From Amoebophrya sp. A120 (lineage: Eukaryota > Protista > Dinoflagellata), in the NCBI GenBank assembly GCA_905178155.1, contig CAJINV010000019.1:688475-752474 (forward strand): 64,000 nt of DNA, read 5' to 3'. Below the pieces are notes generated by a model that ran no database searches, was not told where the DNA came from, and was given only the letters and a program-made list of their open reading frames with translations. The translations under genes and the position numbers were made by a program. Below, in pieces: positions 116 to 64,000 of this stretch. Numbering within the stretch: the first letter of the stretch is position 1; each line of letters starts with the position of its first letter.

Positions 116-3100
116 CTACGCATGAGAGATTTTTATGTGTTGTGAAATGCGCATCACAAGTTTGCATTCTTCTAGAGCTGGATATATTTGCAATGCATAA
201 CTGCCATCGCAACTCTCCTCGAAGTCCCAAGGCCCGTCGGCGAGAAAATCCTCCTGGTTCCTCGGATCTTCAAAGTGCGCAGCAAGTGCGTTGCTCGTCC
301 CAGCAGCGCTTGTTTCCTGACCGGGAATAAACGACCCTTCTTGTTGGCTTTCATACTGCAGTTTTTCGATCTTCCTTTTCTTCGACGATTTATTTTTCAA
401 TCTTCTACTTTTCTTCGGAAACAAGGGCGGGCTGCTTTCCGTCACCAAGCTTCTCTCGATTTCCGTCGCGATTTCTTCCTTCATCCTCTTCCCAGTTGCG
501 GAATTCGCGTTAGAAAGTTGCGCATTTGACAGCACTCCAGATTCACTGTACTCATAATCGGAGCTGTTGCCATCTTCTTCCTCCGTATCGGAATTTTGAT
601 TTTCGCCATGATCTTGCTCTTCGTTACTCCGCATGGTCTCCTTTCCGAATTTCGCGTAGAATTCGTTGTTCAGCTGCACAATGTTCTTCAAATTTCCCAC
701 GTTGTTTTCGAGGATGATCACCCGGTTTTCCAAATTCGTATTTTCCTCTTCCAAAACTTGCTTCTCGTCCTCCAATAGACCACATTTATCCTTCAATTCA
801 TTTTGGATCTCCGCATATCAAATGCAAAACTGTCTGGGTCTGGAAGATTCCCAGGTTTGTCATGCATATTTTGCATGACCAATGACGCCTGTAATGCATG
901 CCCTAGCATCCCAGATTTTTAGAAGGCTTCCTGATGCGTATTCCGCACGAGAAATGACCCGCCCGTGTAGCACAAACTGGACTCCCATTGCTAGTCATGC
1001 AATACAGATTTTTTTGGAATCCAAAGACAGCATCACAAGTTACCACCTTCCAGACCCAGACATTTTTGCATTTGATACCGCAGATTCGCGCTCCATCTGC
1101 AGCTTGTGCTCTTCCAATTCCTTGAAGTCCTTTTCCAACTCAGTAATTTTCGTTTTTGCCTTCTCGAATTCCTCGCTTTGTTCTGTGTACCGGAATTCCG
1201 CAAGTGTCTTTTGCTCTTCAAACAACTTATTTTCCGTTTCTAATTCCTTGTTTTTCAAATCCGCTTTTTCGGAATCTTTTTTCACTGTCGCCAATTCGTC
1301 CCTCAGACTATTCGTCTCAGTGACTTGCTCCCGGTAGTGCTGCCGGAGTTCGGTGGTTTGAGATTTCTCAGTGGAAAAAGAGTCTTCTAACTTCTCGAGC
1401 AATTCACTTTTTTCCTTCAGCGTTTTACTCATCGAGTCGAAATCTCGTTGTAAATCCTGCAACTCCAAAACTTGATTCTCCACTAATTCCGACTGCTTTT
1501 CCAAATCGAACCGGAACCTTTCCGCCTCCAAGCATTTCTGCTCAAACGCTTCACTCGTTTTTGCTAGATTTTCCTTCAAGGCTTTGATTGTTTCTTCAAA
1601 GTTGTTTTGCTCTGTTCTTCTATCCTCTTCGACCTTGCTGAACTTCACGAGGAAGTCCTGCACGCACAAGTCTAGGGACTTCGATTTCTGGTCCAAGTCG
1701 TTGATCAACTCGTCTTTCTGTTCAAGCTGCCCCGCGAGGTCGACGTTTGCGGACCGGAGTTGCACCTGCTCCTTCTCGTAATCGTCGACAATCTTCTTCT
1801 TTTCGTAGTTCAAAGTATCAATCAGTTTTTCCTGTTGTTTTGCTTTTTCCGCTTGCTTCGCAGTTGTTTGCTGAATTGATTCGAGCTCTTTCTCTAGTTT
1901 CTGTTTTTCCTTTTCCACATCTATCAACTGTTCCTTGAATTTCTGGATCTCCGCTAACAAATTCCTGCTGTTCGTCACGGAAGTTTTGTTCTCCTCCTGC
2001 TTCTATGAATTGCAAAAATGTCTGGCTCTGGAAGATTGCAACTTGTCATGGTAAATCTGAAGCATGCAAAAATCTGTGTTGCATGAGTGCCAAAAGCTGT
2101 CCACTTTTGACCAAGTTGGAACGGAGTTTCTCATGTAGAATAGGCACGGCAGAGACCTCGCAGAGTGTGTCATGCTAAGTCCCGCATCTCAGACCTCATG
2201 GGTCATGGAAAATCTGCATGACAAGTCTACACTCTTCCAGACATCCAGGGATTTTTGCAGTTGATAGCTTCAATAAAATTTCCGCCTCCAGCTGTTCATT
2301 CCGCTTTTGCAGTATCAAATGCAGCAAATATGTCTGGGTCTGGAAGATTGCGAGACTTGTCATGCTAGTCTTGCATGATTCTGCACTCTGTATTGCGTGG
2401 CCACCAAGAGGTCCTCTTGCCTGTCGTGCAAAAGCGCAGTTGCTCATGCAAAATACGCAGTACAGAAGCACGAAAAAACTTGCCATGCTTGGCGGCGCAT
2501 TACAGAGCGGTTATTGTTCACTGAATTGCATCACAAGTTTCCAGACCCCCAGACATATTTGCAATGCATATGCAGCCGGTTCATGACATTCTTCGCCCGC
2601 TGCTTCTCGCTATCTAGTTCGAGTTCCAGCTCGTTGCACTTTTTCTGGAACAATTTCGCGGACTCCGCTTCCGCTTGCAGCTGGCTGTACTCTTGGTCTT
2701 TCTCCAACTGTTTGAATTCTTCGATTTTTTTATCCTGAGTAAAAGCGTCCCCATACCAGAGTCAACATGGGAAATCTGCTAGACAAATCAGCAAACTTTG
2801 GTTATTTCGCATGGCCAGTTCGTCCTCGTAGTGTAACCCTGCTTAGCCAGTTGGGCAGCATCACAGATCTACCGTATCATGCTATTTCTAGGATGACAAA
2901 TCCCAAAACACGACTAGAAAAAGCTCCTCATGGGGCTTCGCATGAGAAACTTTTTTGGCATGCAGATTTGCATGATGATAAGTCTGGGGTGGGGATGTTT
3001 TTACTCAGAATATTTTTCCGCGCGGATTTCCCGTTCCTGCTGGAAATCCTCTTCGTTTTTATGCTGTGCAAAAGTATCGCAATCGTACTAATTGCAAATA

Positions 3101-4924
3101 TGCATGACAAATCTCCCTCCTGTATGGTAAAACAGCATTACAAATTCCATTGTTCTTCTTGCCAAAATTTGTAATGCAATTTGAACTAGAACTAGTACGT
3201 TTTACTTTTGCAGTTCATAGTTTTTCGCAACTTTTAACTGCTCCTGGACAATCAGCTCGACTAATTCACTATGGATTGCAAAAATGTCTGGGTCTGGAAG
3301 ATTGCCAGGTTTGTCATGCGCATTTTGCATGACTCCTGATGTCTGTGATGCATGCCCTAGCGTCACAGATCTTGTGAGGGCTTCCTGATGCCTATACCGC
3401 ATGGCAAATGCTCTTTCCGTGTAGCAAAACTCGGAGTCTCTTTGCTGCTCATGCAATACAGATTTTTTTAGAATCCAAAATCAGCATGACAAGTTGGAAT
3501 CTTCCAGACCCAGACATTTTTACAGTTGATATTCACGCGTCTGGTCGTCGAGAAACCTGTGTATTTGTGTTGCATACGACGTAGAAGTACCAATAATAGC
3601 CGCGTCCGCGGAGGTAGTGAGGTCATGGCGGTCTTTTTGTCTTCACGCCAAAAAAAGACGCAACTTCTCTGCCCGCCATGCCATCGTGAGTAATGTTATG
3701 CACGACGGCACGGCGGTCGCTAAAAGTATCGAGCTAGAGCTGGCCTCCATTTGGTTTCGAATCGAAAAACCTTCCCCGCATGCTATGGCCCCGCCAGGGC
3801 CCGAGCCAGGGGCGGCCCCTTGGGAGCCCCAAATCGGGCCCATAGCATGCGGATTGGCTTTTTGCTTTTGGCGGGCTTTGTTTTTTTTGTTTTTTTTTGT
3901 CAAAACGCCGCATCTTCTGGCCTTAAGTCCGCCTCTGAAATGGCGGATCTTGAAGGCGTTTTTTACGGGGCCCGAATGTGGGCCAAAATGAGGCCCATAC
4001 CATGCGGATTCGCTGTTTTTTTCGGAGTGCTACTTTTTGGGCGCCCCTTTTTGGGCGCCCCAAACCGCCAGAAACTAAGGCGGTGGGCGCCTCAGAAGGG
4101 CGCCCCTTTTGCCGGCTCCCCTGCGTCGTTTTATCAAGCGGGAATCGATAGTTTTCGACCGGGCTTGTTTGATGGCAAAGCCCCGGCCGCTTGATAATTG
4201 GAAATTTTTTATGCTCAAAAACACCTCCGGCCACTTGAAAACTGCCGGTCGTTTTGCGTGATGCATGGCAAAAAGATCGCTAGGATAGAACGTTCGTGAC
4301 CTCACTACATATGAGCGTCGTGTAGATTGTACGCATTTATTTTTGTCAAGAATGCACATGCAGATGCAACATCCATGGCGAAAACACTTTAAAAGCAACG
4401 GAAGCTGCAACTTCTAATCCATGAGAACCAAAAAAATCAGTCCTCCACCTTAGCGGTTCGTAAAACATTGTGTTCGGAGCGATCGCCGGTACAACGCCGT
4501 CGCTGCCAACAACATGATGAATCTGCTGCGCCTCCGCTGCGCCACTTGCAGTTCCCACGCTGGTCCGGCCCGGCCTCGCTTGATCGCGCAGCATTGAGAC
4601 CTCCTGCAAGTACGCTTTCTGCGATTCGGCTTTCTGCTTCGTGAGCAGAGCATTTTTCTGCTCGGCATCTTGCAGCTTCTTCTGTTCTTTGGACAAGAGG
4701 TCGAAGGTTTTCTTGAAAACGAGCTCCAGAAGCTCCTCATCCGTAGTCTTCGGCAGGGAGTACTTCAGCCGGCGAGCATAGTCGGCGTAGGTGGTAAGCT
4801 GCGTTGTTGGTTGTTGGGTAGTTGTGGGGGGAAGTAGGGACGTGGACGAAGAATTGTGGCCGCTCAACACCCCGCCGCCGTTCCGCGGCGGGTAATTTTT
4901 GTCGAGAAGATTATGGAGACTCAT
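116..4924 (-). CDS. Long coiled-coil protein, 799 aa after splicing (6 introners plus one GT-AG intron at 3557-4448)
   Basis: ORF pieces join in frame when each element plus one 5-bp repeat is removed (MERESA|EIQNELKDKC, EILLK|QEENK, AEK|IEEF, FYEPLR|FLDDQTREL). Spliced length is 2400 nt. E/K/Q/L heptad-rich. Confidence 0.85.
816..1077. mobile_element. Introner family A (TIR TATCAAATGCAAA..TGTCTGGGTCTGGAAG)
   Basis: ~30-bp TIR; direct repeat CCGCA at 811-815 and 1078-1082; removal restores frame. Confidence 0.92.
2004..2266. mobile_element. Introner family A
   Basis: TIR; direct repeat GCTTC; frame restored. Confidence 0.9.
2313..2570. mobile_element. Introner family A
   Basis: TIR; direct repeat TGCAG; frame restored. 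Confidence 0.9.
2731..3012. mobile_element. Introner family B (TIR TATCCTGAGTAAAA)
   Basis: TIR; direct repeat TTTTT; same TIR as 55842-56121. Confidence 0.88.
3060..3219. mobile_element. Introner family C (short; TIR TAT.CTGTGCAAAAGTA)
   Basis: TIR; direct repeat GTTTT; frame restored. Confidence 0.88.
3270..3531. mobile_element. Introner family A
   Basis: TIR; direct repeat TTCAC; frame restored. Confidence 0.9.
3614..4308. mobile_element. MITE-like GC-rich element inside the canonical intron
   Basis: Perfect 12-bp inverted repeat GTAGTGAGGTCA/TGACCTCACTAC, imperfect subterminal inverted repeat, many GGGCCC/GGCGCC palindromes; no TSD found. Confidence 0.45.
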
Positions 4925-10269: not shown

Positions 10270-13200
10270 TTACTTGTCGTCGTTGTAATATGGGTTGGCA
10301 TTCGATTGCAAAGTTAGGAAGTCGTCGTCGTCTCCTGAATTACTCCTTCCATAGCACTGCGGGTCCTGTAGTTTCTCTTTTGACAGCGATCTGCTCATCG
10401 CTTTTCCTAGCGCTTTCTTCTTCTGTTTCTCATAACTCATTTGTCGATTTAGTTTCTTTTGCTCCGCGGCTTCCTGTGCGTCGGCAAGCAGCGCCGGATC
10501 GATCGCGAAGTTGCCACTCGAGCTGACTTATGCATTGCAAATATGGCTGGGTCTGGAAGAGTGTAAAACAAGTTTTTCATGACCTATGAGGTCTGCTTCT
10601 GGAATGCGGAACCTAGCATGAGAGACTGTGTGAGGTCTCTGTCATGCCTATCCAGCATCAGAAACTGTGTGAGGTCTCTGTCATGCAATACAGATTTTTG
10701 CATGATTCGGATTTAGCATGACAAGTTTGGATTCTTCCAGACCCAGACATACTTATTTGCATTTCATATGACTAGCTCGTCTTCGCTCACCTGTACAATC
10801 ACGGAGGGCACACTGTCCGTCTGCCGGGTACCCCTCGCTAGTGTTTCGGCGGATTTCTCGTGGGCGGGGGCCTTGGATGCGGCACTCCCCGCTTTCGTCT
10901 TTTTCTTGTGCAGTTCCGCCTCCTTAGACGCTTGCCTCACAAACCCGTGCGCATTCGCTACCTTTTTCACACCAGAAGCCGGGCTCGGCTTTCTGGCACC
11001 TGCGGCGCTAGTACTTTTCATCGCAGATGAAGTGGAATTAGTGCTTTTCGCCGACGCGTTGCTTTTCATCGATGCGGCCGCAGCGCTCCTGGCGGCGGCC
11101 GAACTTGCGGCATCTTTGCCGAAGGTCATGTTGCCGCTCTTTAGCATGTCGTAGTTGTCGGATCTGCCCGCGATGGAGTTGCCCTGGGCGCTGAAGTCGT
11201 CGGATTTTTTCTCGTGCGCAAAATGGCCTGAGTACTGCTCCCCGGTGGCCGCAGCGTTCTTCGCTGCCTCAGCTGCAGATGTCCCGCCCGGTGGAATATT
11301 GTGATGTTGACCGTGATGTCCCCCACCTCCGATGTTATCTATTTGGGTTTTGTAACCGCCAGAAGCGAAGGCGCTGCTTCCCGGCTCGGATTCCTCGCTG
11401 GCGGTCCCGGCAGTTTTCGCACTACTCGGTCCCCCAATTTTTGCGCCCGGTTCGCCGTGCGATTTCTGCACTTTGCCCTCGCCGCTGACCTCCACGACCA
11501 CCATGACATCCGACTTCTTCTTGGTGTCTGTAGCAACCTCCGTCCCCGTCTGTTTTGACCGCTGGCCCCGCGACACCTTCGATCGCAGTTGCGTGCCCCG
11601 AGATTTGGCCTTTCGGGTCGCGCGGATCTGGTCTATCACTTTTTTCCGCTGTTTCTCTAACGCCTTCATAAACGGCCCGACCTGTGCGCAAAACACCTTG
11701 TCTTCTCGCTTCTGCTTTTTCATCTCTAACGAGGACCACTCATAGCCGCCAGAACTTCGCTTACTCCAATCAGTGCGGTGCGTCGCGCGCGACGGTACCG
11801 TGGAGGCTTTGCTTGTTGGTTCTTTGGCAGCTGCTCCGATCTGGTCGGTTTTCCGGGAGCCCTGGCTGCGAGGGCCTTTGTCATAATTTCCGGTGTCCGA
11901 CTGTTCGCTGGCGCTGCTCCCCGTTTCTTCGCCGAATCGCGACAAGTTCTCCCGCTCCCCCTCAGCGCGGTTTTTGCTCATCGCTTTCGCGGCAACAGCG
12001 TCCACATCCGCTTCGACGCGACTGCCTTGCCCTATGGGGTTCTCAAACGTTACATTCTCAACTGTTGCATGATTTGTCATGCAAAAACGCTATTGCTCTG
12101 CACACCATCAAGCCTTCTTTGCATCACAAGTTCTCGACGCGCTAGATAGCATTATAATCTGCTCCAAGCCTGTAATGCAAAAGGCGCAACCTTTTCCCTT
12201 TCACTTTTGCCATTCTTGCATCACAAATTCATGTAACAGTTGAGAATGCAACAATTGAGAATTCCATATGCCCGGTCGCCCGACTGTCCAGCTCGCGCCG
12301 CACGCCGTCGGACTTTTGATCTGTGGCGCGGGAAGGTGATTTTTGCTTCTTAGTCGCGCCGGTCTCTGTTTCTGTTTCTGACTCCGTGGACGTCGCCGCG
12401 CCGGTCCGTTTGCTGGCATCGGAGAGTATGTCGGACTCGGACAGAAACTCGAGTTCTTTATTCTTTCCGTGGACCACCACCATGCCCGGGATCTTTTTGA
12501 TATAGGAATTGATCCCGGACTCGGTTATATCCGGGTACTTGCCCCCCTCCGGGTGGTACCCCGCGCCTATGTCCTTCAGCGGCCCGAGGAAGGAAACCTC
12601 TTCGCTGAACTTGTAGTAGATGTCCAGCAACACCGCCTCCTCTAGGAAATAGTCGTCTTCGTCGTCGCTCAAATCCAACAGCCGTCCCCTCTCGAGGTCG
12701 GTGTCGCTATCGGAGGAAGTATTATCCCCACCAGCTTTTCTACTTTTGTTCTTTGCCGCGTGGTTGAAGCGCTTCTGTTTCCACACCAGGTTACTCCCCG
12801 CGGGGTAGTAGCTCAGCCGCACGTAGGCGCGTTCAAACACCATGTGGTACACGTGCCTCGCGCCCCACATCTGGATCCCGTCGGGGTACTTAAAGTCTTT
12901 ATCGGCGGTCCCGCGCTGCCCACAGCAGTACGGAATGACAAACGCGAATAGATAGAGCGGGAACAAAAGAATCGACCCGATCCAGCTCAAGATGATAAAC
13001 GCCGCGTTTTGCTTCGTCCCGTCCGTGCCGGGATTTTTCTGCCGGCACCCGCAGCACAGCGCCGGCGCGCAGCAGCAACACAGGGACTCGAACCACTGCT
13101 CATTCGCCAAGTACTCGGCGAAAAGTTTTGCATACTCATCGTCCCAGGTGGAATAGCAGATGATTTCGCCCAAATCAAGCTTCCCGAGTTCGGGGCATTC

Positions 13201-32155: not shown

Positions 32156-34163
32156 CGAGATGAAAAAGTTATATGCAGCCCCTCACATTTTGACACAGAC
32201 ACTGTGATTGCCAGATGGGACGATGAACGTTATAAGTTTGTTTCATCCCGAAACTTTGATTTAGTAAACATCTTCTTGTTCAGAAGCGATCTTCATTGAG
32301 CATTCCTACTATATCGATGAAAATTAGTGCGTTATACGATTTTAAATTGATATTGTCATCACGACAGGATAATTATACGCGCATTGACATTGTCGCGCCG
32401 TCCTAACGAAAGTTTTCTGCTCGGCGAAAGATTCATTGTGCCGCATGAATGGAATCCTAAATGAAGCTACAACCAACTTAGCTCTCGTGGTCTATTTATT
32501 TCGTCGACTTTGCCGCTCTACTTCACGTGCTTAGTTCCACTAGTTCGGCACGAATCAGAATGCACATCAAGAACATTGTCGCGGACTTGAGCAGATGTTT
32601 CCACCGACGCCGATTTCTGCACGAAGGTTGACCATACACCCGACCTGATTCATCTTCGAACCACGATCATGCGGGGCTTATCCCATCAATTTGTTCATTT
32701 CGGCACCTAGGATGGAAGAAGCTTGTGCCTTGCAAGAGAAATGAACAACGAAACCAAAGTAGAGTTAGAGTACTTTAGTAAGTTTGTCCGTAGTTTCCAA
32801 TACATATTGACACAAGTGAACAAGTTGTACAAGAAGACGCTGTCTCTCTGTCAATTCTTGCACATAATAAAATGACTCTCCAGGGCCTCCAGCGGGTGTT
32901 GACACTTGTCGTATAGTCGACTATCCGGCGCACGACCACGACCCCCAGCTGTCCATAATTCGGAAGCAAACCTTCAGCCCGGTTATACTCAGATAAAAGA
33001 ATCGGGACGACCGGGACGTCGATGTGGCGACGGAAACAACAAAACGATCTCGCAGAACAAACGCAGCGCCCGCGCTCGACTTCCGCCCCCCCCTTGTGTC
33101 TTTCGGCGCAAAGTTTACAGAAGAATTTGTTCTCGAACAACGTGTTGGGTGGACATCGCGGAGCATCAAGATTTGCAATGCGTGGCCGCGACCAGTAGGT
33201 ACGAAAATAAATGCCATACTTTATTTGTAAGTCATAACGGTAGTCGTCGAGGGATTGTTGTTCGATTTCACCGTAATATATCGAATGCAACTGTAATACG
33301 CGCAAGCCAGGATAATTTTAGGGTTTAGGGTAGTAGTACTCGCCAAAAATTGATCGATGCTGTTCGACGGTAGGTGTGGTGTGTCGCTATCGTTTTGTCG
33401 TACGTTCCTTTCGATGCAATGCTTCGGGCAATGCTTCTTCTCGACGGCAGTTTCCCGGCCGTTTTCATTTCTGACAACATTCATGATCGGCTTCATCTCG
33501 TTCCGCACAGTTGGAATTTATTCGGTCTTGTTTTTGCAACAACGACTGATCGCGGCTCGGTAGCTAGTTTTTTGTTGAAAAAAAATTTGCACTTGCACAC
33601 TTCAGCTCGATTGGGTTATCTAGGCCTAGGGTCTGTTGCTTGAAAAATGACCGAAAGAATCCGACAAAGCACCACTCCACGGGTGAGGAGGACTATCTCA
33701 TGAGTGGCAGAATGGCTGAGACGAAGAAAAAAAACGCGGCGATTTTTGAAAATTGGCCAGCGCGGTCTCCTTAAGAAAACACCGAAAAAATCCAAAAAAG
33801 CGCCTCTCCACGCTTGAGCAGCACCTCGCTGGCGGTAGATTGGGTCGTGACACAACTCAGAAGAAAATTATCTGCTCACGCTCATTATCGTCCGTAGTGC
33901 TGCCGTTTTATCTACATTTCTATCAACTGCGGACCCACTTCCACCGACCATTATGTTGACCAAGGAACTTTTGATCGTACACCGCGGGCGGATGAAGACC
34001 TGACCAACACACTCAGGTTCTTGCAAGGATCACATGAGGAACGCAAATGAGATCCAAATCACGCGCTGCACGAAAAGCGCACCAATCCTTTTTCTGAACA
34101 ACGTTTCCTAGTACATGCGAACGCAGAACAACTAGAGAACGCCAGGGGCATGTTGCTGACACC

Positions 34164-52562: not shown

Positions 52563-53231
52563 TTTGATTTCCAGAAGAAGATTTGGAAACGAGGACTAGA
52601 AAGACTCTCCCTAGTACGAAAGAGAAAATTTACGGTGTAGTCTGCACTTTATACAATTTCCAAGCCAGGGAAAAGGGACCTGCAAAACGAGAAAAGATGA
52701 GATATGACGCTTGATAGATGTAACAAGTTGTATGTGGTCAAACACAAACTGAAATGGGGACGTCGACATCAGCATCACATAGACGGAGCATTTTGTCGTG
52801 CACGAAAGTATACTAAGAGAAGTACGAAAAGAGGACCAAACGGTAATTCCAAGCGGGCAGAACCAGCTAAGAAAGAACGACGTCGGTATGAACGATGTAG
52901 GTTTCAGCTATTGACGAATTATGATGTTTAAGTTTATGTGTCGATCGTGACGGCCGTGTTTCTGTTTTAGCACGTTGTACGAGTCGGACGACGTGGGTGA
53001 ACTTTTTGCTGGAGTACTCTTCCTGTTTCTACTTTTATGACCACGAGAAGCAATAAATTCGAAAAGAAAACGACAAAGCGTGGAAAGAACCCTAAATCAG
53101 AATACCAAGAACCCTAAATCAGGTGCGCAACAAATCATGACTTCCGGAAAGTCAGCACTGTAGTGTGTACCAAATGACTTCGTGTGAGACCGCAGTGTTT
53201 CTATTGCGTCGCAGCATCATGATCATCTACT

Positions 53232-56197
53232 TCATCGCTCGTCCTCTGGAGAGTGAATGTGAAGATGCTGCGCATGTTCGTCATTTATTTCGTCAAGCTT
53301 TTGTAGTTCCGAATCCGAGCCAGCGTCTGCGTCAGACTCGTTTTCCATATCGGAAATTTCATCTTCCTCACAGCTTTCTTCCTTGACAATGGCTCCGCGG
53401 CCACCTGGTTCAGCAGGACCCGCCTCGTCGTCATCTCCACAGCCTCCTGTTGCTCCTTCCGCATAGTTGTACGCATGATTGCAAAGGTCATCATGCCCCC
53501 TGGCGTTCGCTTCCGAGCTCTCTTCATGCCCTGTCGCTTGCTTCTCGGGCTCGGCACAAAAGCTAGGGTCGTCAAGAGAATGAGAATTGTTTTCAGGGTG
53601 CTCGTGATTGTCGTCGTCCCCGTTAGATTGTGATTGACCTTGAAGATGGCTTTGTTGATCATCTGCAAATAATCCCCCTGGAGATTGAAGATCATTCGTT
53701 CCCGCCGTCGTGCGAGGTTGGTTCCCGTTCATCGTCACCAGTTTTTTATCCACTTCTCCGCTCGACAATGCAGTTCCAGTTCCCGCAGCTGGTGCCGTGA
53801 CTGTTCCCAACTTCGGATTTTCCGGATGTTCCAAAATCCGGAACATCACCTTCCGCCCGGAAAGTTTGAAATACTCGGCATACAAATTGTCCTTGACAAA
53901 CTTCCGCAGCACCCCCTTCGCCTTTTCGTACACTAATTCAGAGTTCGCAACCACGGAAATTTGGTACTGGTGGTTGGAACGAGATACAGGATGATGGTCG
54001 TGGTGTTCATCTTGGAGCTGCTGTCCTGAAGAAGATCCTCCTGCTGCTGCTGCTGTCTCCATGGAGGAAGTTTGTCCAGCTGCTGCGGCTGGACCAGCAG
54101 TCTTCTGCGCGACGTTCTTGTGCTTCTTAACTAGCTTGAAAGTCACACCCCCGCTGGCGCACGATTTTTCTAAGTCCAGGATCGTTTTCGCTGTCAGGTA
54201 TTTGCTCATCAGTTCTTGCACCTGATGCTTGATATCACACAGAAAAAAGCTGGCAGGGCAGACTTGTAATGCTAAAATAAATACACAAAAAAATTTGCAT
54301 TGCTTACCCTAATCAGCATGCTATGGGGCTGCCCATGACAGATTTTTCTGCGTGTTTATTTTTGCATTACAAATGTGCCCTGCCAGCTTTTTTGTTTTTC
54401 TGTGGGATACTGGAAATCGTGGTTGTTTCGCCCGTTTAGTCCCCGCAGGTTGTTTCGTGGATGAAGCTGCACAGAAGTCGCGGTTGAACCCGCCGAAGAA
54501 CCAAAAGTACAAGATGTTGACACGACGATCCCAGAAGCAGCTCCGGTTAATACAGGGCCAAATTCTACTTCACCTCCAGCACCTCCACGAGCGGGCGCCA
54601 CGTCGTCTATTCCAATCGGCACTATGCAGAGCCACTTCAGGGTTCTCTGCAACACAGTGACCTCCTCGTCCTTTGCGAGTAGAATCCGCTGCTGCCACTT
54701 TTTTTCCATCTGCTGCTTTTTCCGCTGCTGTTGGTAGTACCGCTTCACTTCCTTGTTATACGCCGCGTAGGCGGTAGCAGTACTGTGCGACGGATAGTAG
54801 TAGTTTTTAGTACTCGCGAATAGAGCAGCAGAGGGGAAGTAGGGAGGGGTGTGTGTTGATGCTGCGTCCTCAACATCCAAAATCAAATCCGTCCCATTCA
54901 CATGGTACTTCGCAAGGCGGTCGTTTTGAAGTTCATGCTTTGATGGAAGCTTGTGCAACTTGTCCGGTAGTTGCTCCATCTGCGAGGACAATGTAGAACT
55001 TGTCCTTTCGTTGCTGCTCGAAAAGAAATTCATCGCTTTTTTCACCTCATCATCCCCAACAACTTCTTTTCCATACTTCAACGGGAAAACGTGCTCGGTG
55101 CCTCGTTCCAGGGACCGTCCGACACACCACGCCATTTCGTCGCAAAACAAAATTTCCATGAGCTCGCCGAGGAAAAAGAGGTCGCGGTTGCGTTTTTTGA
55201 TGATCTTCACAATTGGGAAGGGAAAGGTTGAGGATTGGTCTTGCTGGTCATGGTTTCCCGCTGTCGTCGCATCATGATGTACAAGTTCCGTTGCGCTGTC
55301 GGGGGTGGTGCTAAAATTCTTCTCCTCCGATGAAGATGATCGATGAGGACCAAGAACAACTTCCGGATCAACATTCGACGTTTTTTTCCTGCCGCCACCA
55401 AGAGCAAGAAGAGCAGCGGCATCGGGGTTTTGGTACTGCAGATCCTCGGCGAAACTACTGGAAATTTCGGAGATGGTTGAAGTTCTGGGGTTGTTGTCTT
55501 CTAGTACCACATCACCAGCATCTTCTGCAGACTGCCTGCCTTGACCTTGTACTTGTGCCTCGTTTATTGTCGTAGTGGATTCGGCGTCGGCGTCGACGCA
55601 TGGTGGTTTGCGTTTGTCTTCAAATGCAGATAAATTCGAGCGGCTGGTGGTGGTGTCCACTTCTTTTGAGAAGTAGTTCTCTTTTTTATTCTGCGCGATT
55701 CCTGCAACTACAGGCAGATCATCGTCGTGTTCAATGGTCGTGTCTTGGTCGCTCCCATGGCCATGCAGCAGCTCTTGGCTTTCTGTCTCATCATCTTCCT
55801 CGACTTCGTCTAGCAGAAAGTCGTGAAGATGCACGGCATCATATCCTGAGTAAAAACGTACCCACACCAGAGTTGTAATGCAGATTTGCAAAGACAGGAA
55901 GACTTGTAATGCGCATCCCCATGAGAGCCATTTCCAATCGTGTTTTGGAATTTGTGATGCTGTGAACAGGATGAGCAGACGAATCTGTGACGCGGCTGCA
56001 CTTGCTACCCTGCACTACACTGCATAGCGAAACCTGTCATGCGTGACTCACAAAACTCCTAGGTTTGTGTATGCAAAATCCTCATCCTGACTCTGGTGTG
56101 GGTACGTTTTTACTCAGGATACATCAAAACTGTCCGTCTGGGTCTGCTGCTGGACCACATAGAAGTCGTCCAGATCGAAACCCTCGAGGAAATCCAT
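53232..56197 (-). CDS. Uncharacterised 832-aa protein with an SH3-like segment (2 introners)
   Basis: Joins TDSFD|AVHL and HDFQ|HQVQEL; spliced 2499 nt; GELMEIL...AWCVGRSLERGTEHVFPLKY resembles SH3. Confidence 0.75.
54233..54409. mobile_element. Introner family I (almost complete fold-back)
   Basis: ~60-70-bp TIR TATCACACAG..AAAAGCTGGCAGGGCA; direct repeat CTTGA/CTGGA. Confidence 0.88.
55842..56121. mobile_element. Introner family B
   Basis: Perfect TIR TATCCTGAGTAAAAACGTACCCACACCAGAGT; direct repeat CATCA. Confidence 0.92.
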
Positions 56198-57396: not shown

Positions 57397-60300
57397 TCAC
57401 ACCGGCAGCGCCCCGGGAAATTTGATGGGCATGGCCATCGGGTGGGCTTCCGTATCCAAGGAAAAAACTGTGTAGGTGTAAAGTAATTTTCTTGGAGGAA
57501 TAGCATCACAAGTTTGCTCTGCATGACACAGAAAACCTGTCATGCGTATCCAGTACCTGAAAACACGAAGGAAAGAGCCTCTGATGCACATCCAGCATGA
57601 CAAGTGTAGCAGTTTTGCACTTTCTGCATCACAGACTTACACTCACATAGTTCTTTTCTTGCATATTCCGTGCTGATGATGTACTTGCTCAAGTCCAGGA
57701 TTGTGATGGGGGAAAAAATCAGGTAGAAGTATTTCATCGTTTCGGCCATGAAGAAGGATTCCTGCTGGTTACTCCGGACCGACGGATTCCGCACGTCCCG
57801 CAACGCGGTGTAACCGTATTTGGTCTTCGAGTGCTTCTTGAACGCCAAAAACATTATCACACAGACAAAACAAAAAGCTGGCAGGGCATATAATTTGTAA
57901 TGCAAAAATAAACACACACAAAAATTTGTCATGGGTGGCCCCATAGCATGCTGTTTCCGATATGCAATACAGGTTTTTTTGTGTATTTATTTTTGCATTA
58001 CAAATGTGCCCTGCCAGCTTTTTTCTGTGTGATAAACATCTCGGTCGCCCACTTCCGGTATTTCGGGTCCCCGGTGTAGTAGTGCAGGTAGTACAGATAT
58101 GCAGTGCAGATATGTCTGGGGTCTGGAAAAGTAAGAGCAAGGTTTGTCATGCCAGGCTAGCAAGACTCCCAAGTCTGTCATGCACGTTACCCAAAAGCCC
58201 TATTTTTCCGCGATACAGAGACGCAGTTTGTCATGCAGAATAGGCAACACGAACACTTAGAAGCTCAGAATAAACTTGTCATGATGAGCCATCATTTGTG
58301 GCCTCCTCATGCTACGTCACTCAGCATTACAAGTTTATTCCAGACCCAGATAAGTATATTTGCATTTGATAACAGAGCCTCGATCGCTTCCGGCCGAAGC
58401 AAATTGTGCGCGCCGTCGGGCGGGAGCACCATATCGTTCGCATTATCCTTGGCATTCACGTCGAAACGGACATACTCCGGGGAGAGACCGGTGTGCGCGA
58501 GCTTGTACCTTGGTTTTGGTAGAATTATTGAGGGAGGAGTAGAGTTTGCATGATGAAAACGGATCACTCTTGGTTGTTTTTTGCATGATCGGTATAGAAG
58601 AGAGAACCACGAAGGAAATAAATGAAGTTGTACTACGGTATTACATTTTGTAACAGGTTTCCGCAACTCCTTCCGCCGCCGGAAGCCACCTTGGGTCCAC
58701 CTCTTCCTTGTCTAGTTCGAGGATCCCGAGTATCAACATGCCCGGCACGAAGCAGGCCAAGTGGTCCATCTTGTCCAACCGCTTTCCCGCATTCTCTTCC
58801 GCGATGAAAATGGTGCCCTTTTTGGTTTTCACCACGAGCCGGTCCATCATTTCATTCATGGCCTTCACGAATAATGCCTTGTACCTGATTTATATTTTTG
58901 TAAGAAATTGAAATTGCCATCCGCATCTTCACGCGCGCTGACTGTGACTATCTCCTTCTACTTTTTCCTTCTGGAAGATGACAAAAAGCTAAATTTTCGA
59001 ATACAAAACAGGCATGAAAATAAAAAAACGAAGCATCACTATCATAATACCGTGCGTCCCTCTTCCCGTTCTGTAGCCACTGCTTCACTAGATATTCGTA
59101 GTAACTGTCCCCCATTGCCCCGAGACTTATCCTCCCTCCGATGAACCCGCTGTGCGCGGACTGCTGTTTCGACCCCATGTAGATCGGCACCAAACCCTTC
59201 TTCGCGTTTTCGCTGTTCTCGACGATCTTCATGAACGCTTTATCTGGCACGGTCCAGAATTCCGTCCTCTTTGTGTGCGCGGACAGCATGCGAAACTCCA
59301 GTTGCAAGGTTCCGACTTCTGCGATGTTTGTGCCCGTCGCCCAGTTATGGATTGCAAATATGTCTGGGTCTGGAAGAATGCAGGGCCTGTCATGCTTGTC
59401 TGGCATGACCCATGATGCTTGTGATGCATGACCCAGCATCACAGATTTTTGGAAGGCTTCCTGATGCCATTTCTGCATGACAAATGCCCTCCACGCGTAG
59501 CACAAATGCGGCTCCTCTACTTGCTGGTCATGCAATACAGATTTTTTTAGAGTCCACAGTTAGCATCACAAGTTCCAACTTTCCAGACCAAGACATTTTT
59601 ACAGTTGATACCAGTTCAGCCACCTGCTACCGCCGGATGCGAGGTCTATCTGGGGTTTTGGTAGCCCGGACTCCTGGGTGAAAGCGCGGAGCAATCTGGA
59701 ACCCAAATCCGCTGCTTTGTCGAGAAAAATCTGGTGCTGGGACAGCGAGAAGGCCGAGAGCAGCCCACCGAGACCACGGATCGTGATTTCGAAGACGGAA
59801 TGGTAGCCAGATCTGTGATAACGATAAGGAAATTTGGCATGCGAAAATGGATAAGTACGCAAACACAAGTTGTGTTCATCGTTGTGATAGCTGCATCAAC
59901 ATCACATCACATCACCGCAATAATCACCTCCCACATCAGCACTTTTTACCTTATCGCCCCAAAGTCTAGTTTCTGGACGAAGTCCTCCCCCTCTGCAAAT
60001 TCTTTTTTCAGGTCCATCACCCACAGCGTGTCCAGCGAGTCTAGTATGGTGATCCCGATGGAGACCCAGTTGTGGCCTCCCCCGGTGACCGGGCGCACCT
60101 CGTCCTTGCCCCACGCGGTTGCCTTGTACCCCCGCCAGCAGTGCACCATCTCTTTCCGGACGGTTTCGGCCATGACGTCGGCGTCTCGTTGCGACTGGAC
60201 CAATTCGTCCTCGGAGAACTTTTCTTTCCATCGGGCGGGAAAACTTGCCTTCAACACGTCATCCGGGAGTGTCGCCCGCGGCTCCACGTCGGTAATGTCG

Positions 60301-62230
60301 GCTATGTATCAAATGCAAATATGTCTGGGTCCTCTGGAAGAATGCAGGAGTTTGTCATGCAGATTTTGCATGACCCATGATGTCTGTGATGCATGCCGTA
60401 GCATCACAGACTCTGCGAGGACTTTCTGATGCCCATACTGCATCAGAAATGCCCTCTCCGCGTAGCAACAAACTCGACTTCTTTTGCTGTTCATGCAATA
60501 CAGATTTTCTGTAGAATCGAAAGGTAGCATCACAAGTTGCATCCTTCCAGACATCCAGGGATATTTGCAATGCATACTATGAACGGCGGAGGGGTCCTGT
60601 TCCACCACCACGACTTTTATCGAAGAAAAAAAGTTCGTCACGATCACTCATGCGCATTCTTGCAATACAAAATTGTTTGTCATGCGTAAAAATGCATCAC
60701 AGACAAACTTCATTAGGGAGTTCCCTAGTGTTTCTGCAATACAAGGAAAGTTTGTGATGCTGAGAAAATTTGTAATGCAAATCCTGCAAGTTAGTGAGTG
60801 TGACAAACTTTTTTCTCTCCATAATTTTGTGGGGTCTTTCAGTTTCAACCTGGGTCTTCCTATTCTTTGCATCAGCATCACTCTCATCATCTTACCATCT
60901 TTCATCACGATATGGATGTGTCAGAGTTGAAATCGACAAAGTTGAAATAATTTGCCATGCATAAAATGGACGCCAGCTGGAACCCAGTTTCCAAGTGGCG
61001 CATGACAAATTTCGGCGGTCCCTAAATCCAGTCTGCCATGCTGTTTAGGCAAAGAAGAGCGATTTTCTCATGCTACTTTAGCAGCTCGATCTGTAACCCC
61101 AAACAGGCTGACAATCGGCCTCACTTGCCTGCTCTGCAACACACGTGCCTCGGGTCATGCATTTTATGCATTACAAATTATTTCAACTTTGACGATTTCA
61201 AACCTGACGCTTCCATACACGACGCGCGTCCGCTGCGCGGGTCCCCGCTTCGGCGGGAAGTACCGCCTTGTGGATTGCAAAAATGTCTGTGTAAACTTGT
61301 CATGCAGGTTTTCCATGACCCATGAGGTCTGGAATGCTGGACTTAGCATGACAGACTCTGTGAGGTCTTTGTCATGCCTATCCTGCATGAGAATCTCCAT
61401 TCCAACTTGGTCGAAAGTGGACAGCTTTTGCCGCTCATGCAACACAGATTCTTGCATGATTCGGATTTAGCATGACAAGTTGCAATCTTCCAGACCCAGA
61501 CATGTTTGCAATCCATACGCCTTCTCCGGAGCGGAATGCGGGCCTGCCGTCGGCGGAACGGAAACCGCGCCGGTCTCTGTTTGAGCCCGCTCAATACGGA
61601 CCAGCGGTGGGGAAACACCGACGGCGGGCGCGGGTTGATGTTCTGGTTGTTATGCAAGGAAGCGTCTTGTTGTGACAGGCTCGGAGTACTTGGTGGATTT
61701 CTTGCCGGCGGTTTCGGAAGAGGCGGTAAAACAGGTTGCGGCTGCTGCGGCTGCTGCTGCTGCGGCGGCGGCTGTTGTTGTGCAACTGCACCAGCATTGG
61801 GAAGGCTTTCTGCCGGCGGGGCGGCGAAAAAAGGCGGGAAAACCGGGTGAAAAAGCTGCGTCCGAGTCTGGTGTAGCAACTCGGGGTAACTGCTCTGGGC
61901 GCCGGACGCAGATTCTTGCACCGCTAGAGGTGCTGCCAGGACTAGTCGGCCACCGGGGGGCGGTGGGCTGGGGAGCAGGGGGAGATGGCCTGCATCGGCA
62001 GTCGCCCCCGCGACAGCTTTGTCGGCTGCCGTTGAAGTTGTACCAGTTGCACCAGCTTCCGCTTCGGCATTGGAAGCAATTTCCGATGCGAGTGCTACCT
62101 GGAAATAAAATAACGATCGCGAGTAGAGCAACAAAAAGCTGCTGCTCGCGCCGAAAAGTACTTGCGCTGGTGCCCCCTGTCGTGCTGCGGTACTCCTAAA
62201 ACCTCCTCGGCCGGCGCCTGCATTGCGCAT
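57397..62230 (-). CDS. Class I alpha-1,2-mannosidase (glycoside hydrolase family 47), 796 aa; 8 introners plus GT-AG introns 58509-58644, 58885-59050 and 59813-59949
   Basis: GH47 motifs AWGKDEVRP, LDSLDTL, SVFEITIRGLGGLLSA, AEVGTLQLEF, GAMGDSYYEYL, MDHLACF, LRPEAIEAL, ESFFMAETMKYFYL, STEAHP; spliced 2391 nt; start codon inferred. Confidence 0.93.
57453..57665. mobile_element. Introner family J
   Basis: Direct repeat TTCCG; splits the conserved TE|AHP motif. Confidence 0.9.
57855..58034. mobile_element. Introner family I
   Basis: Direct repeat AACAT; long TIR. Confidence 0.92.
58098..58371. mobile_element. Introner family A
   Basis: Direct repeat ACAGA; IEAL|YYLH. Confidence 0.92.
59346..59610. 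mobile_element. Introner family A
   Basis: Direct repeat CCAGT. Confidence 0.92.
60307..60576. mobile_element. Introner family A
   Basis: Direct repeat CTATG. Confidence 0.9.
60618..60823. mobile_element. Introner family K (TIR TAT.GA.GAAAAAAGTT.GTCAC)
   Basis: Direct repeat ACTTT/ATTTT; DPTK|SWWW in frame. Confidence 0.8.
60911..61217. mobile_element. Introner family E
   Basis: Direct repeat CACGA. Confidence 0.92.
61269..61517. mobile_element. Introner family A
   Basis: Direct repeat CGCCT; left end is TGT instead of TAT. Confidence 0.88.
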
Positions 62231-63105
62231 CGCAGCAGGTGCTGCAGCGCAGGCTGGAGGGGCTGGAAATTTTGACGAGCTTCTGTTTAAGTAATGTTCA
62301 TCTGTATTCTCATGATGGTAGTGCTGCCTCTTTCTTGGAAAGATCTTCAAATTTACTGTATTCTCATGGTCGTGCTGTGAAATAAGTCGAAGCACCTCCG
62401 TGCTTCCTAAGATTTTTTTTTTTCAAATGAAGCGCGATATTTGATTTTCTTTCATTCTCGGTAGCTGCAGTAAAAGAAGTGCTGCAGTGCTCGTCTTCGT
62501 CTTTCCTTTTTGTCATTAAGGAGCGTCACAGGCGACGAGCTAGTACTACGAGCGCGGCAAATTCGCTAGCTGGATGCTGTGTTCAAGTCCAGCCCAGGGT
62601 AAGTAGGTCTACTATTGAGCATTCACCTCGGCACTTAAGTCTCTCGCTCTTGCACTAAGTGCATTTCACTCTCAGAATGAATAGAAAGCTACCGCTAGGG
62701 TGATGCGCAGACGTCTCTCGACAACCAGTATGAGCTTCGTCCATCGTTTATACTCTGAATGCATGGGCTCTACTCGATGGTAGTCATGTACTTGAGCTAT
62801 ACGCATGCATGGCACAGAACTTCTGCTTAACCTTATTTATCGACTTCAGCATGCATATCAATCAAGCTGGAGAAACAGCTTTCCCGGAATAATTGACCAT
62901 GACTGTGTTGTGGAATAGTGAATCAGGCAGCCGCTTGCATATCCGTCGCTTCTGGAGGAGGCGTTTTCGCAACCCAGGACACGTCTGGCCGTTCTATGTA
63001 CCTAAGGTTTGATGATTTCTGAAAAGTGAGAAAATTTTTTATGAAATCCGACTCCTTCTGGGACGAGTTCGCGTGAGACTACGCGTGGGTTTGAAGCCCC
63101 AACCA

Positions 63106-64000
63106 TCAGATAATGAAAATGGAAAAACTATGAAAAAAGCAGTACGGGGTCGATTTGAAGAGCGGCACCGGTTCTTTGCTGTCCAACGTTTTGTAGATTC
63201 CGATTTCCCTCGTTACCCTATTGACCACCGGCCCGGTAGACTGTCCAAACTGCACGTGCACTTTCATGCTACTCCGGTCTAGTAGGTGTTTGTTGTCGAT
63301 CAAATCGTCGAGTCTCGTTATCGTCGCGTCGAAGAACGCTTTTGCGTCGGGCCACGTGTAACTGTAGTACCGCGCGTCGAGCATGTATCCCATGAAGCCG
63401 TGCATGCCCTGCTGCTCCGGTTTGAAGCCGCCCAGGTAGAGCCGTATCCCACGAAAAAAGTGTTTCACTGTAAGGATTTTGCCAGTTTTGCATCACAAGT
63501 TCACTCTACATGACAGAGAAAATTTGCCATGCGAGGTTCCTAAGCGAAAACACAGCTAAAATCGATTGTCTTTCATGTGTAGCAAGACAAACACTTCGAA
63601 GATACTGATACATGTTTTGCATTACAAGTTTACAGTGAAACAGTTTTTTCCTGCGGTAGGCCGATCCGTCTCCCTATTGGCCACCATCCGCGGGAACAAA
63701 CCCCCGACGTAGACGGAACCCTTGCTGTAGATATCCCGGTTGGCTTCGGATGTGTCCGCGACAATCTTGTTCCCGATGTACCCATATGCAGTGAAAAAAT
63801 ATCGCACGTGCTAATCGCAATCACGCAAGACAAATCTCTTTCCCAAGCTCAATCAGCTTGAAAAACTCCATTTGTCACGCAGAGCTAAATTTGTATTGCA
63901 AGAAAAAGAATTAAGTAGATTGAGTACTAGCACGGGGACGATACTTTTGCCATTCATAACACAACAGCGCGATCGGGGTAAAAGGAGAAGCCGACCAAGG
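63106..64000 (-). CDS. 3' part of a gene with a LamG/concanavalin-like beta-sandwich domain; starts beyond the window
   Basis: Spliced LVGFSFYPDRAVV|YIGNK...DR|.YLGGF...FMGYMLDARYY; 3' end uncertain. Confidence 0.6.
63445..63658. mobile_element. Introner family J
   Basis: Direct repeat AGCCG/GGCCG; internal similarity to 57453-57665. Confidence 0.82.
63785..63958. mobile_element. Introner family C
   Basis: Direct repeat ACCCA/ACACA. Confidence 0.82.

What the first reader, a model, noticed from the sequence alone, without database searches (positions are those of the whole stretch)
811..63963. Window-wide system of TAT...ATA TIR elements with 5-bp direct repeats acting as non-canonical introns
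Seen: about 42 elements from at least 11 families with distinct TIRs. Almost all are bounded by TAT...ATA and a variable 5-bp direct repeat, and all lie in coding exons. Removing element plus one repeat gives spliced lengths divisible by 3 in six complete gene models, with no GT-AG requirement. Established: introner elements with inverted and direct repeats and non-canonical boundaries have been reported in Amoebophrya, and as far as I know their removal mechanism is unresolved. Inference: a structure-guided precise excision (RNA splicing, or IES-like DNA excision) operates alongside the normal spliceosome.
Basis: partly seen in the sequence, partly recalled or inferred. Interest (0 to 1): 0.92.

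Follow-up and report, generated by a model that had tools for sequence, protein, structure and literature searches.

The report
Hairpin introns cut at fixed offset
These are already-described transposon-derived introns of the marine parasite Amoebophrya that ignore the usual GT-AG rule; every junction that could be resolved here fits one cut position just outside their hairpin, so the cell likely measures from RNA shape instead of reading splice letters.

Summary
The window encodes three proteins identical to Amoebophrya sp. A120 models, whose TAT-starting inverted-repeat introners with direct repeats (DR) are in PMC7789003. I count 45 distinct elements; 33 have an exact 5-bp DR, and removing element+5 nt opens every host ORF. 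RNA-like contigs skip exactly element+5 and a DNA-like run holds filled sites, so IES-like DNA excision is unlikely. New here: elements with a damaged DR locate the cut. Seven informative junctions all fit one register, and only that one: the intron starts 1 nt before TAT and ends 4 nt after ATA (N-TAT...ATA-NNNN). One was predicted before looking, at a site with no DR left. In this register 0 of 45 are GT-AG, but U+2/A+3 are kept. All clustered families share an internal octamer, TGTVATGC (132 copies inside, 7 outside), likely a transposase site. Best reading: hairpin-guided RNA splicing, probably by a U1-less spliceosome; the catalyst is untested. Five of the seven junctions rest on the public annotation, not on reads.

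The parts
816..1077 (.). element, family A, exact 5-bp DR
   Evidence: in 669-aa ORF
2004..2266 (.). element, family A, inverted orientation, exact DR
2313..2570 (.). element, family B, exact DR
2731..3012 (.). element, family E, exact DR
3060..3219 (.). element, family C, exact DR
3270..3531 (.). element, family A, exact DR
10529..10768 (.). element, family A, exact DR
   Evidence: in 1103-aa ORF
12033..12268 (.). element, family F, exact DR
13366..13672 (.). element, family D, exact DR; 93.8% identical to 60911
13751..14016 (.). element, family A, exact DR
14109..14258 (.). element, family C, exact DR
14690..14962 (.). element, family A, exact DR
15052..15201 (.). element, family C, exact DR
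17339..17684 (.). decayed element, DR 2 of 5 matching, no strict octamer; register 2-5
   Evidence: P0003
18392..18619 (.). decayed element, DR 0 of 5 matching, no strict octamer; register exactly 4 (intron 18388-18620, GT...TG)
   Evidence: predicted (P0003)
21069..21319 (.). element, family B inverted, DR 2 mismatches (synonymous in the likely frame; untested)
21379..21531 (.). element, family C, exact DR
22365..22615 (.). copy of 21069 inside the duplication next to the N
22675..22827 (.). copy of 21379 inside the same duplication
25957..26261 (.). element, singleton, exact DR; the only one of 43 with a GT-AG placement at +5 (register 1)
26309..26564 (.). element, family B, exact DR
   Evidence: P0001
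26607..26833 (.). element, family F inverted, exact DR
27636..27748 (.). element, CAT...ATA ends, DR 3 mismatches; register 3-4
   Evidence: P0001
28027..28320 (.). element, family A, DR 1 mismatch; register 1 or more
   Evidence: P0001
28384..28657 (.). element, singleton, DR 2 mismatches (synonymous); weakest predicted hairpin
28721..28973 (.). element, family B, exact DR
   Evidence: P0001
31320..31581 (.). element, family A, TAT...ATG ends, exact DR
   Evidence: P0001
31641..31892 (.). element, family B, exact DR
   Evidence: P0001
34737..34906 (.). element, DR 3 mismatches; register not tested
39003..39267 (.). element, family A inverted, DR 2 mismatches; register 4-5
   Evidence: P0002
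40282..40551 (.). element, family A, exact DR
   Evidence: P0002
40910..41065 (.). element, family C inverted, exact DR
41105..41326 (.). element, singleton, exact DR
41465..43565 (.). 2101-nt element, family D inverted, filled with tandem repeats; removed as +5 in the annotation
43734..43988 (.). element, singleton, exact DR
54233..54409 (.). element, family G, DR 1 mismatch; RNA contig skips 182 nt; register 3-5
   Evidence: (X1 record 1)
55842..56121 (.). element, family E inverted, exact DR; one side of the RNA junction seen
57453..57665 (.). element, singleton, exact DR; RNA joint 57447 to 57666 skips 218 nt
57855..58034 (.). element, family G inverted, exact DR
   Evidence: contig length fits +5
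58098..58371 (.). element, family B, exact DR; splits the GH47 domain at Pfam position 367
59346..59610 (.). element, family A, exact DR
60307..60576 (.). element, family A, exact DR
60618..60823 (.). element, singleton, DR 1 mismatch at position 4; register not tested
60911..61217 (.). element, family D, exact DR
61269..61517 (.). element, family A, TGT...ATA ends, exact DR
63445..63658 (.). element, TAT...GTA ends, DR 1 mismatch at position 5; register 4 or less (one side of the junction seen)
   Evidence: (X1 record 4)
63785..63958 (.). element, family C, DR 1 mismatch; register not tested
58509..58644 (-). ordinary GT-AG intron in the GH47 gene
58885..59050 (-). ordinary GT-AG intron in the GH47 gene
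59813..59949 (-). ordinary GT-AG intron in the GH47 gene
57400..62422 (-). GH47 alpha-1,2-mannosidase host gene: 8 elements and 3 GT-AG introns, 860-aa open frame
38089..52595 (-). host gene with 6 elements; model identical to P0002 (3725 aa) in register 4 or 5
17006..18945 (-). host gene with 2 decayed elements; model identical to P0003 (452 aa) only with register 4 at 18392
25774..32182 (-). host gene model P0001 (662 aa) with 9 elements; the 493-aa tail is identical only in register 3 or 4

Best explanation
These are non-coding hairpin elements, likely spread as DNA transposons, that sit in coding exons and are missing from transcripts as element plus 5 nt; the cut is inferred to fall at one fixed place set by the hairpin, probably made by a spliceosome that works without U1. 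Steps. (1) Insertion (inferred): a transposase encoded elsewhere binds the TAT inverted repeats and the internal TGTVATGC sites and duplicates 5 bp of target, in either orientation. (2) Folding (predicted): the transcript pairs the two ends into a long stem. (3) Removal (length shown for 2 junctions by RNA contigs and for 17 by annotated proteins; position inferred from 7 junctions): the 5' cut is 1 nt before TAT and the 3' cut 4 nt after ATA, so the mRNA keeps repeat letters 1-4 of the upstream copy and letter 5 of the downstream copy, restoring the original target in any phase. The repeat is a by-product of insertion, not the splice signal. (4) Catalyst (inferred, untested): the U2/U5/U6 core, with the stem replacing U1 and AG recognition; the donor keeps U+2 and A+3 of the ordinary GUA donor while +1 and the acceptor are free. 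Odds: RNA-level removal 0.93; fixed register 4 as the main rule 0.8; spliceosomal catalysis 0.65-0.7.
For: RNA-like run X1: joint 57447 to 57666 skips 218 = 213+5; adjacent contig pieces skip 182 = 177+5; a 2205-nt contig equals the model with four elements at +5 and three GT-AG introns. DNA-like run X5 (flat depth about 44) shows 0 at that joint and its contigs run from exons into the elements. Register: 18392 exactly 4 and 17339 2-5; 27636 3-4 and 28027 at least 1; 39003 4-5; 54233 3-5 and 63445 at most 4. 7 of 7 allow 4; no other value fits all. 18392 was predicted beforehand and has 0 of 5 repeat letters matching. In register 4: 0 of 45 GT-AG, 44 of 45 donors NT; A+3 and A-7 in 43 of 43. 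All 7 multi-copy families occur in both orientations. 41 of 42 short elements pair their first and last 30 nt, median z -6.9. All 9 top A120 non-canonical site classes in the published Table S4 have T at donor position 2. Spliceosome: U2, U4, U5, U6 and 83 of 89 proteins found, U1 not found, in A120 (PMC7789003); a relative with U1 has mostly GT-AG introns (PMC12005148); decayed elements more often start with G (5 of 7 against 10 of 38, Fisher p=0.03).
Against: Five of seven register points come from annotated proteins, which reflect an annotation pipeline; both junctions of P0003 start with GT, which a pipeline may favour. The RNA contigs may be the same data the annotation used, so the two are not independent. 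63445 was seen from one side only. One search hid 224 joints and 10641 pieces; raw-read runs X9 and X10 gave 1 and 0 reads (no test). X1 is only guessed to be RNA and X5 has no library record. Five damaged-repeat elements gave no information (21069, 28384 synonymous; 34737, 60618, 63785 untested). PMC7789003 describes splice sites as variable relative to the hairpin. The G+1 trend was post hoc and is not significant at the other threshold (6 of 12 against 9 of 33, p=0.17). The terminal TAT/ATA pairs all have probability above 0.5 in only 29 of 42 folds, and 28384 hardly pairs its ends. A branch adenosine would lie in a stem, 5-7 nt from the 3' cut. All host genes are on the minus strand, so polarity by transcription could not be cross-checked on a plus-strand gene.
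Confidence: 0.55

Rival explanations
1. Same fixed geometry, but cut and joined by a non-spliceosomal endonuclease and ligase that recognise the base of the stem (as proposed for euglenid nonconventional introns), releasing circles or linear RNA.
For: No acceptor consensus at all (AG in 3 of 45); symmetric signal that works in both orientations; stable stems; a similar asymmetry in Euglena, 3 nt on the 5' side and 5-6 nt on the 3' side (abstract of PMC12501133); euglenid introns leave as full-length circles (passage in PMC11282704).
Against: U+2/A+3 match the ordinary GUA donors of this genome; spliceosome core retained, with only U1 missing among the snRNAs; 15% of canonical A120 introns share the IR/DR layout, suggesting a continuum; weak drift to G+1.
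Confidence: 0.22
2. RNA splicing is real but the cut floats within the repeat or slides to the nearest GT or AG; register 4 is only the commonest.
For: Published text calls the sites variable; annotated sites per family are mixed (20 of 58 A120 rows seen in PMC12130899 dataset); n is only 7 here; 25957 allows a GT-AG placement.
Against: With an intact repeat any of six placements gives the same mRNA, so mixed annotation is expected from alignment ambiguity; every unambiguous case here allows 4, including 39003 (CT...TG) and 63445 (CT...GC) that gain no GT; at 17339 and 18392 nearby AGs are not used.
Confidence: 0.15
3. IES-like excision from DNA before transcription, by a domesticated transposase.
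For: TIR and TSD anatomy; strand-neutral octamer with about 32-nt spacing suits a DNA-binding protein; other life stages were not examined.
Against: Filled sites and no empty joint in the DNA-like run (contigs drop rare variants); an off-centre 4+1 cut is hard to make with a symmetric transposase dimer and holds for an element inverted against most of its family (39003); a site without any repeat is still removed at +5; no germline-soma split is known in this group (recalled).
Confidence: 0.04
4. The junctions are reverse-transcriptase template-switch artefacts at hairpins flanked by direct repeats, and the elements stay in real mRNA.
For: Hairpin plus short repeat is the classic setting for such artefacts (recalled); all RNA evidence here is presumably cDNA.
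Against: Retention would break every host ORF, including a GH47 domain whose pieces abut at profile position 367; 18392 has no repeat to switch on; the register is consistent.
Confidence: 0.03

Closest known systems
Amoebophrya sp. A120 introner elements (Farhat et al. 2021, PMC7789003; sections 10, 11, 12, 16, passages and supplement text read; figures not seen)
   Same: Same organism (three proteins identical); inverted repeats starting TAT, seven variable bases, then As; 3-5-nt direct repeats with a 5-bp example; RNA-supported non-canonical introns; about 240 nt.
   Different: Nothing in kind. Added here: one repeat length (5), one cut register (1 before, 4 after), repeat dispensable, shared octamer. 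The paper calls the sites variable and part of the border unknown.
A120 introner families in Gozashti et al. 2025 (PMC12130899; passages and 20 of 58 A120 dataset rows seen)
   Same: Most rows seen are classed as TIR DNA transposons; one family has TIRs with Copia/Gypsy-like ORFs.
   Different: Automated TSD calls there range 2-5 and splice sites are mixed; no fixed register in what I saw. No autonomous copy in this window.
Euglenid nonconventional introns (PMC12501133, abstract and introduction only; PMC11282704, passages)
   Same: No GT-AG; ends joined by pairing; fixed spacers, longer on the 3' side; coexist with normal introns; mechanism unknown.
   Different: Motif is CDG/CHG at +4, not TAT/ATA at +2; unrelated lineage; purine preference at the next exon start not evident here.
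Polarella, Symbiodinium and Aureococcus introners (bioRxiv 10.1101/2020.10.14.339549, passages)
   Same: TIR elements whose TSD supplies boundary letters; some work in both orientations; one class has a 5-nt TSD.
   Different: They need G(T/C/A)...AG letters recruited from the target, so insertion sites are filtered; here any target sequence works.
Ginger2/TDD DNA transposons (PMC2836005, passages)
   Same: TIRs; TDD-4/5 make 5-bp TSDs.
   Different: Ginger ends are TGTNR; here TAT in 44 of 45 at that end; no transposase seen.
Paramecium IESs (recalled, no call)
   Same: Short transposon-derived inserts in exons, removed precisely.
   Different: IESs are TA-bounded and removed from DNA; these persist in the DNA-like run and are cut off-centre.

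Membership tests
Amoebophrya A120 introner elements | Inverted repeat starting TAT, seven variable bases, then a run of A | tested here: met
   Position counts for 43 elements match the description
Amoebophrya A120 introner elements | 3-5-nt direct repeat at the exon borders | tested here: met
   Exact 5 bp in 33 of 45
Amoebophrya A120 introner elements | Repeated families | tested here: met
   7 multi-copy groups holding 34 of 43 elements
Amoebophrya A120 introner elements | Absent from transcripts, non-GT-AG borders | tested here: met
Amoebophrya A120 introner elements | Host genome is A120 | tested here: met
   P0001-P0003 carry that name and match the models letter for letter
Canonical U2 spliceosomal intron | GT (or GC)...AG borders | tested here: not met
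   0 of 45 in register 4; 1 of 43 in any +5 register
Canonical U2 spliceosomal intron | Lariat with branch adenosine | not testable with these tools
   No lariat or stranded raw reads mapped
Non-autonomous TIR DNA transposon (MITE) | TIRs, constant-length TSD, no coding capacity, both orientations | tested here: met
   the long copy's 213-aa frame has no Pfam hit
Non-autonomous TIR DNA transposon (MITE) | Cognate autonomous transposase in the genome | not testable with these tools
   No genome held; none in the window; PMC7789003 found none in A120, PMC12130899 reports integrase-like ORFs in one family
Non-autonomous TIR DNA transposon (MITE) | Recent mobility (near-identical copies, empty alleles) | tested here: inconclusive
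   Closest pair in the window 93.8%
Ginger/TDD transposons | TGTNR termini | tested here: not met
   TGT at one end of 1 of 45 (definition)
Ciliate-type IES | Empty site in the expressed genome | tested here: not met
   Filled sites in X5, depth 0 at the empty joint; one sample, contigs only
Ciliate-type IES | Stage-specific excision | not testable with these tools
   No staged DNA available
Euglenid nonconventional intron | CDG at +4 to +6 pairing with CHG | tested here: not met
   +4 is T in 42 of 43 (definition)
Euglenid nonconventional intron | Excised as full-length circles | not testable with these tools
   No suitable reads

The most novel reading that the evidence does not exclude
Amoebophrya A120 runs a second, non-spliceosomal mRNA splicing machine that ignores boundary sequence, measures from the base of a TAT/ATA stem, cuts 1 nt before and 4 nt after it, and so undoes any insertion of these transposons in any gene, phase or orientation. 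It would be a structure-only splice code tuned to a 5-bp target duplication.
Probability: 0.2. Interest if true: 0.9.

Novelty: already known. Interest (0 to 1): 0.52.

Why it matters
The elements are published, so the finding as written is a rediscovery. The added rule matters because about 30,000 such introns are reported in this genome with borders left undefined. A fixed 1-before, 4-after cut explains why a 5-bp-duplicating transposon is harmless anywhere in an exon, gives exact ends to look for in lariat or circle sequencing (which would decide between a U1-less spliceosome and a new enzyme), and would let the annotation be corrected mechanically. It also shows that the stem, not the repeat, is the likely signal, which suggests a minimal synthetic intron to test.

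Tried and rejected
No whole genome is held, so nothing could be counted genome-wide. No listed holder of the stretch is on record as RNA; X1-X4 are guessed RNA. Raw-read runs X9 and X10 gave 1 and 0 reads, no test; X2, X3, X4, X6-X8 and X11 were never laid, and reads were laid on 44001-64000 only, leaving 33 of 45 elements without read evidence and the position-4 mismatch at 60618 unread. A first homolog search for the giant gene found nothing because its length range stopped at 2000 aa. The three protein hits had no relatives beyond themselves, so there is no intron-free ortholog. Pfam: GH47 in 4 of 24 pieces, weak coiled-coil or repeat hits in 2, nothing in 18. Rfam: 0 matches. Earlier scan findings: none. 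Rejected: removal as element+2 (frame-equivalent but excluded); cut at the TIR edge, register 0 or 5; candidate pairs 5672-5854, 8516-8730, 8616-8730, 9236-9571 and 37160-37336 (no open frame at +5), dropped before the count; pairs inside the 42.2-43.1 kb tandem array. Helical phasing of the octamer was looked at with one copy per family and is only suggestive. Literature: searches found no paper stating a fixed register; one search found the octamer only in three unrelated papers. Figures 3, S19, S21 and S23 of PMC7789003, 38 of 58 A120 rows and two files of PMC12130899, and journals outside the library were not seen and may already hold the rule.
Full report
1. Observation. A de novo scan for inverted repeats with flanking direct repeats, not told to look for TAT, returned mostly TAT...ATA elements with a 5-bp flank, apart from a tandem array at 42.2-43.1 kb. 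With homology searches and frame checks the catalogue reached 47 full elements, 45 distinct, 113-346 nt long plus one of 2101 nt, together 12,975 of 64,000 bases. Ends are TAT...ATA in 41 of 45. The flank repeat is exact in 33 of 45 and is specifically 5 bp. Shuffles give a mean of 1.9 such pairs against 32 observed, and 0 against 30 when the inverted repeat is also required (50 shuffles). The first 43 fall in 13-16 groups, and all 7 multi-copy families include both orientations. Removing element+5 nt puts all 47 inside open minus-strand frames, among them 669, 1103, 452, 866, 3736, 836 and 860 aa. The 860-aa frame also needs three ordinary GT-AG introns and is a GH47 mannosidase whose four Pfam pieces come in order.

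2. Identity. Three searches returned one protein each, all named Amoebophrya sp. A120. P0002 (3725 aa) and P0003 (452 aa) equal my spliced models letter for letter; P0001 does so over its first part and its last 493 aa, with an odd stretch between them in a locally triplicated exon. PMC7789003 describes, for this strain, introners with 8-20-nt inverted repeats that start with TAT, direct repeats of 3-5 nt, 29,850 copies in 1954 families, and a 5-bp example (I read sections 10-12 and 16, passages and supplement text, not the figures). The system is therefore known.

3. Is it removed from RNA or DNA? Runs X1, X5, X9 and X10 were laid on 44001-64000. X9 and X10 gave 1 and 0 reads. X1, guessed to be RNA, shows a joint 57447 to 57666 skipping 218 nt (213+5), and two adjacent pieces of one contig skip 182 nt (177+5). 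A 2205-nt contig equals the model with four elements at +5 and three GT-AG introns removed, which also shows that X1 behaves as spliced RNA. A 1129-nt contig equals the model with four more elements at +5 if it overlaps the first by 30 nt, an assumption. X5 has flat depth near 44 over unique sequence, its contigs run from exons into the elements, and it has depth 0 at the empty joint. The output hid 224 joints, contigs drop rare variants, and these runs may underlie the annotation. Annotated proteins give +5 at 17 further junctions (9 in P0001, 6 in P0002, 2 in P0003). Divisibility by three alone could not exclude +2 or +8; these data do.

4. Where is the cut? With an intact repeat all six placements give the same mRNA. 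Twelve elements have a damaged repeat, and seven were informative. In transcript orientation, the number of letters kept from the upstream copy is: 54233, 3-5 (RNA); 63445, at most 4 (RNA, one side seen); 27636, 3-4 and 28027, at least 1 (P0001); 39003, 4-5 (P0002). Only 4 fits. I then recorded a prediction for 18392, where each of the six registers gives a different residue pair. P0003 matches register 4 and no other, and 17339 allows 2-5. At 18392 none of the five flank letters match, yet the skip is still element+5 in the same place. If registers were uniform over 0-5, all seven would include 4 with a chance of about 0.004 (hand arithmetic; 1 in 6 for the predicted junction alone). Five damaged elements gave nothing (two synonymous, three untested). 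The intron is thus N-TAT...ATA-NNNN. In this register donors are GT 15, AT 10, TT 10, CT 9, AC 1; acceptors are AG in 3; none of 45 is GT-AG. The nine commonest A120 non-canonical classes in the published Table S4 all have T at donor position 2, which agrees, though they cover about a fifth of introns and depend on aligner placement. The paper itself calls the sites variable relative to the hairpin, so the rule is either new or hidden in figures I could not see.

5. Structure and shared motif. 41 of 42 short elements are predicted to pair at least 15 bases between their first and last 30 nt, with median z -6.9 against 8 shuffles each; the terminal triplets all pair with probability above 0.5 in 29 of 42. 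The octamer TGT[ACG]ATGC occurs 132 times in 12,975 element bases and 7 times in 51,025 other bases, in 42 of 45 elements. It is strand-neutral (62 against 64), faces inward 29-47 nt from 47 of 84 ends, and 18 of 49 same-orientation neighbours are 31-33 nt apart; family members are not independent counts. It is missing in strict form from 17339 and 18392, which are still spliced in the annotation, so it is more likely a transposase-binding subterminal repeat than a splice signal (inference). It suggests that the many families share one mobiliser. A paper search found it only in three unrelated papers.

6. Mechanism. Insertion with a 5-bp duplication followed by a 4+1 staggered cut restores the original target exactly, in any phase and orientation, which explains the density in exons (inference). 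The off-centre cut follows transcription direction rather than element orientation, as far as a window with only minus-strand genes can show, and this argues for RNA processing and against IES-like DNA excision. The catalyst is untested. For a U1-less spliceosome: donors keep U+2 and A+3 like this genome's GUA donors; U2, U4, U5, U6 and 83 of 89 proteins were found and U1 was not; a relative with U1 has mostly GT-AG introns; strain A25 donors are TT with repeats starting TTA; decayed elements lean to G+1 (p=0.03 at one threshold, 0.17 at the other, post hoc). Against it: no acceptor letters, and a branch point that would sit in a stem 5-7 nt from the cut. A Euglena-like non-spliceosomal route stays open; its code also has a longer 3' spacer.

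7. Comparison and verdict. Member of the A120 introner class on every feature tested. Works like a MITE for spread and like a euglenid nonconventional intron for removal, without being a member of the latter. Not a Ginger element by its ends, not an IES by the DNA evidence. Novelty: already known. Interest 0.52, carried by the fixed register, the dispensable repeat and the shared octamer, which make an open question directly testable but rest on seven junctions from one window.

Noticed in passing
window 29035-30180: A 1146-bp element with TAG...CTA ends, an imperfect inverted repeat and an exact 8-bp flanking repeat (hAT-like geometry, label recalled); it carries the same octamer and no long ORF (at most 139 aa), and sits among three tandem copies of a short exon piece where the annotation of P0001 looks unreliable.
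   Followed up: partly
window 21047-22342 and 22343-23638: About 1.3 kb repeated back to back, apparently exactly, with the window's only N at the joint; probably an assembly overlap. It doubles two elements.
   Followed up: no
window about 9000-9118 and 9236-9340: Two half-elements flank a short open frame; each keeps only one inverted-repeat end, one giving a GT donor and the other an AG just after ATA. They may be introners turned into ordinary GT-AG introns (speculative).
   Followed up: partly
window 8616-8652 and 1-199: A lone left end of family C, and an element cut by the window start.
   Followed up: no
window 41465-43565: A family D element swollen to 2101 nt by 96-nt and about 165-nt tandem repeats is still removed as +5 in the annotation, so the distance between the ends seems not to matter.
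   Followed up: partly
window 38089-52595: A 3725-aa protein with an 8.6-kb exon free of elements and internally duplicated segments; no Pfam hit in the pieces scanned and no relative found.
   Followed up: no
whole window: All host genes with elements lie on the minus strand, in line with the unidirectional gene clusters reported for this genus.
   Followed up: no
window 37160-37336: TAT...ATA pair with a 10-bp perfect inverted repeat, no flank repeat and no open frame across it; perhaps a decayed element in a 5' UTR.
   Followed up: partly
window 15950-16620 and 19900-20560: A diverged non-coding duplication of several hundred bases, seen by eye.
   Followed up: no
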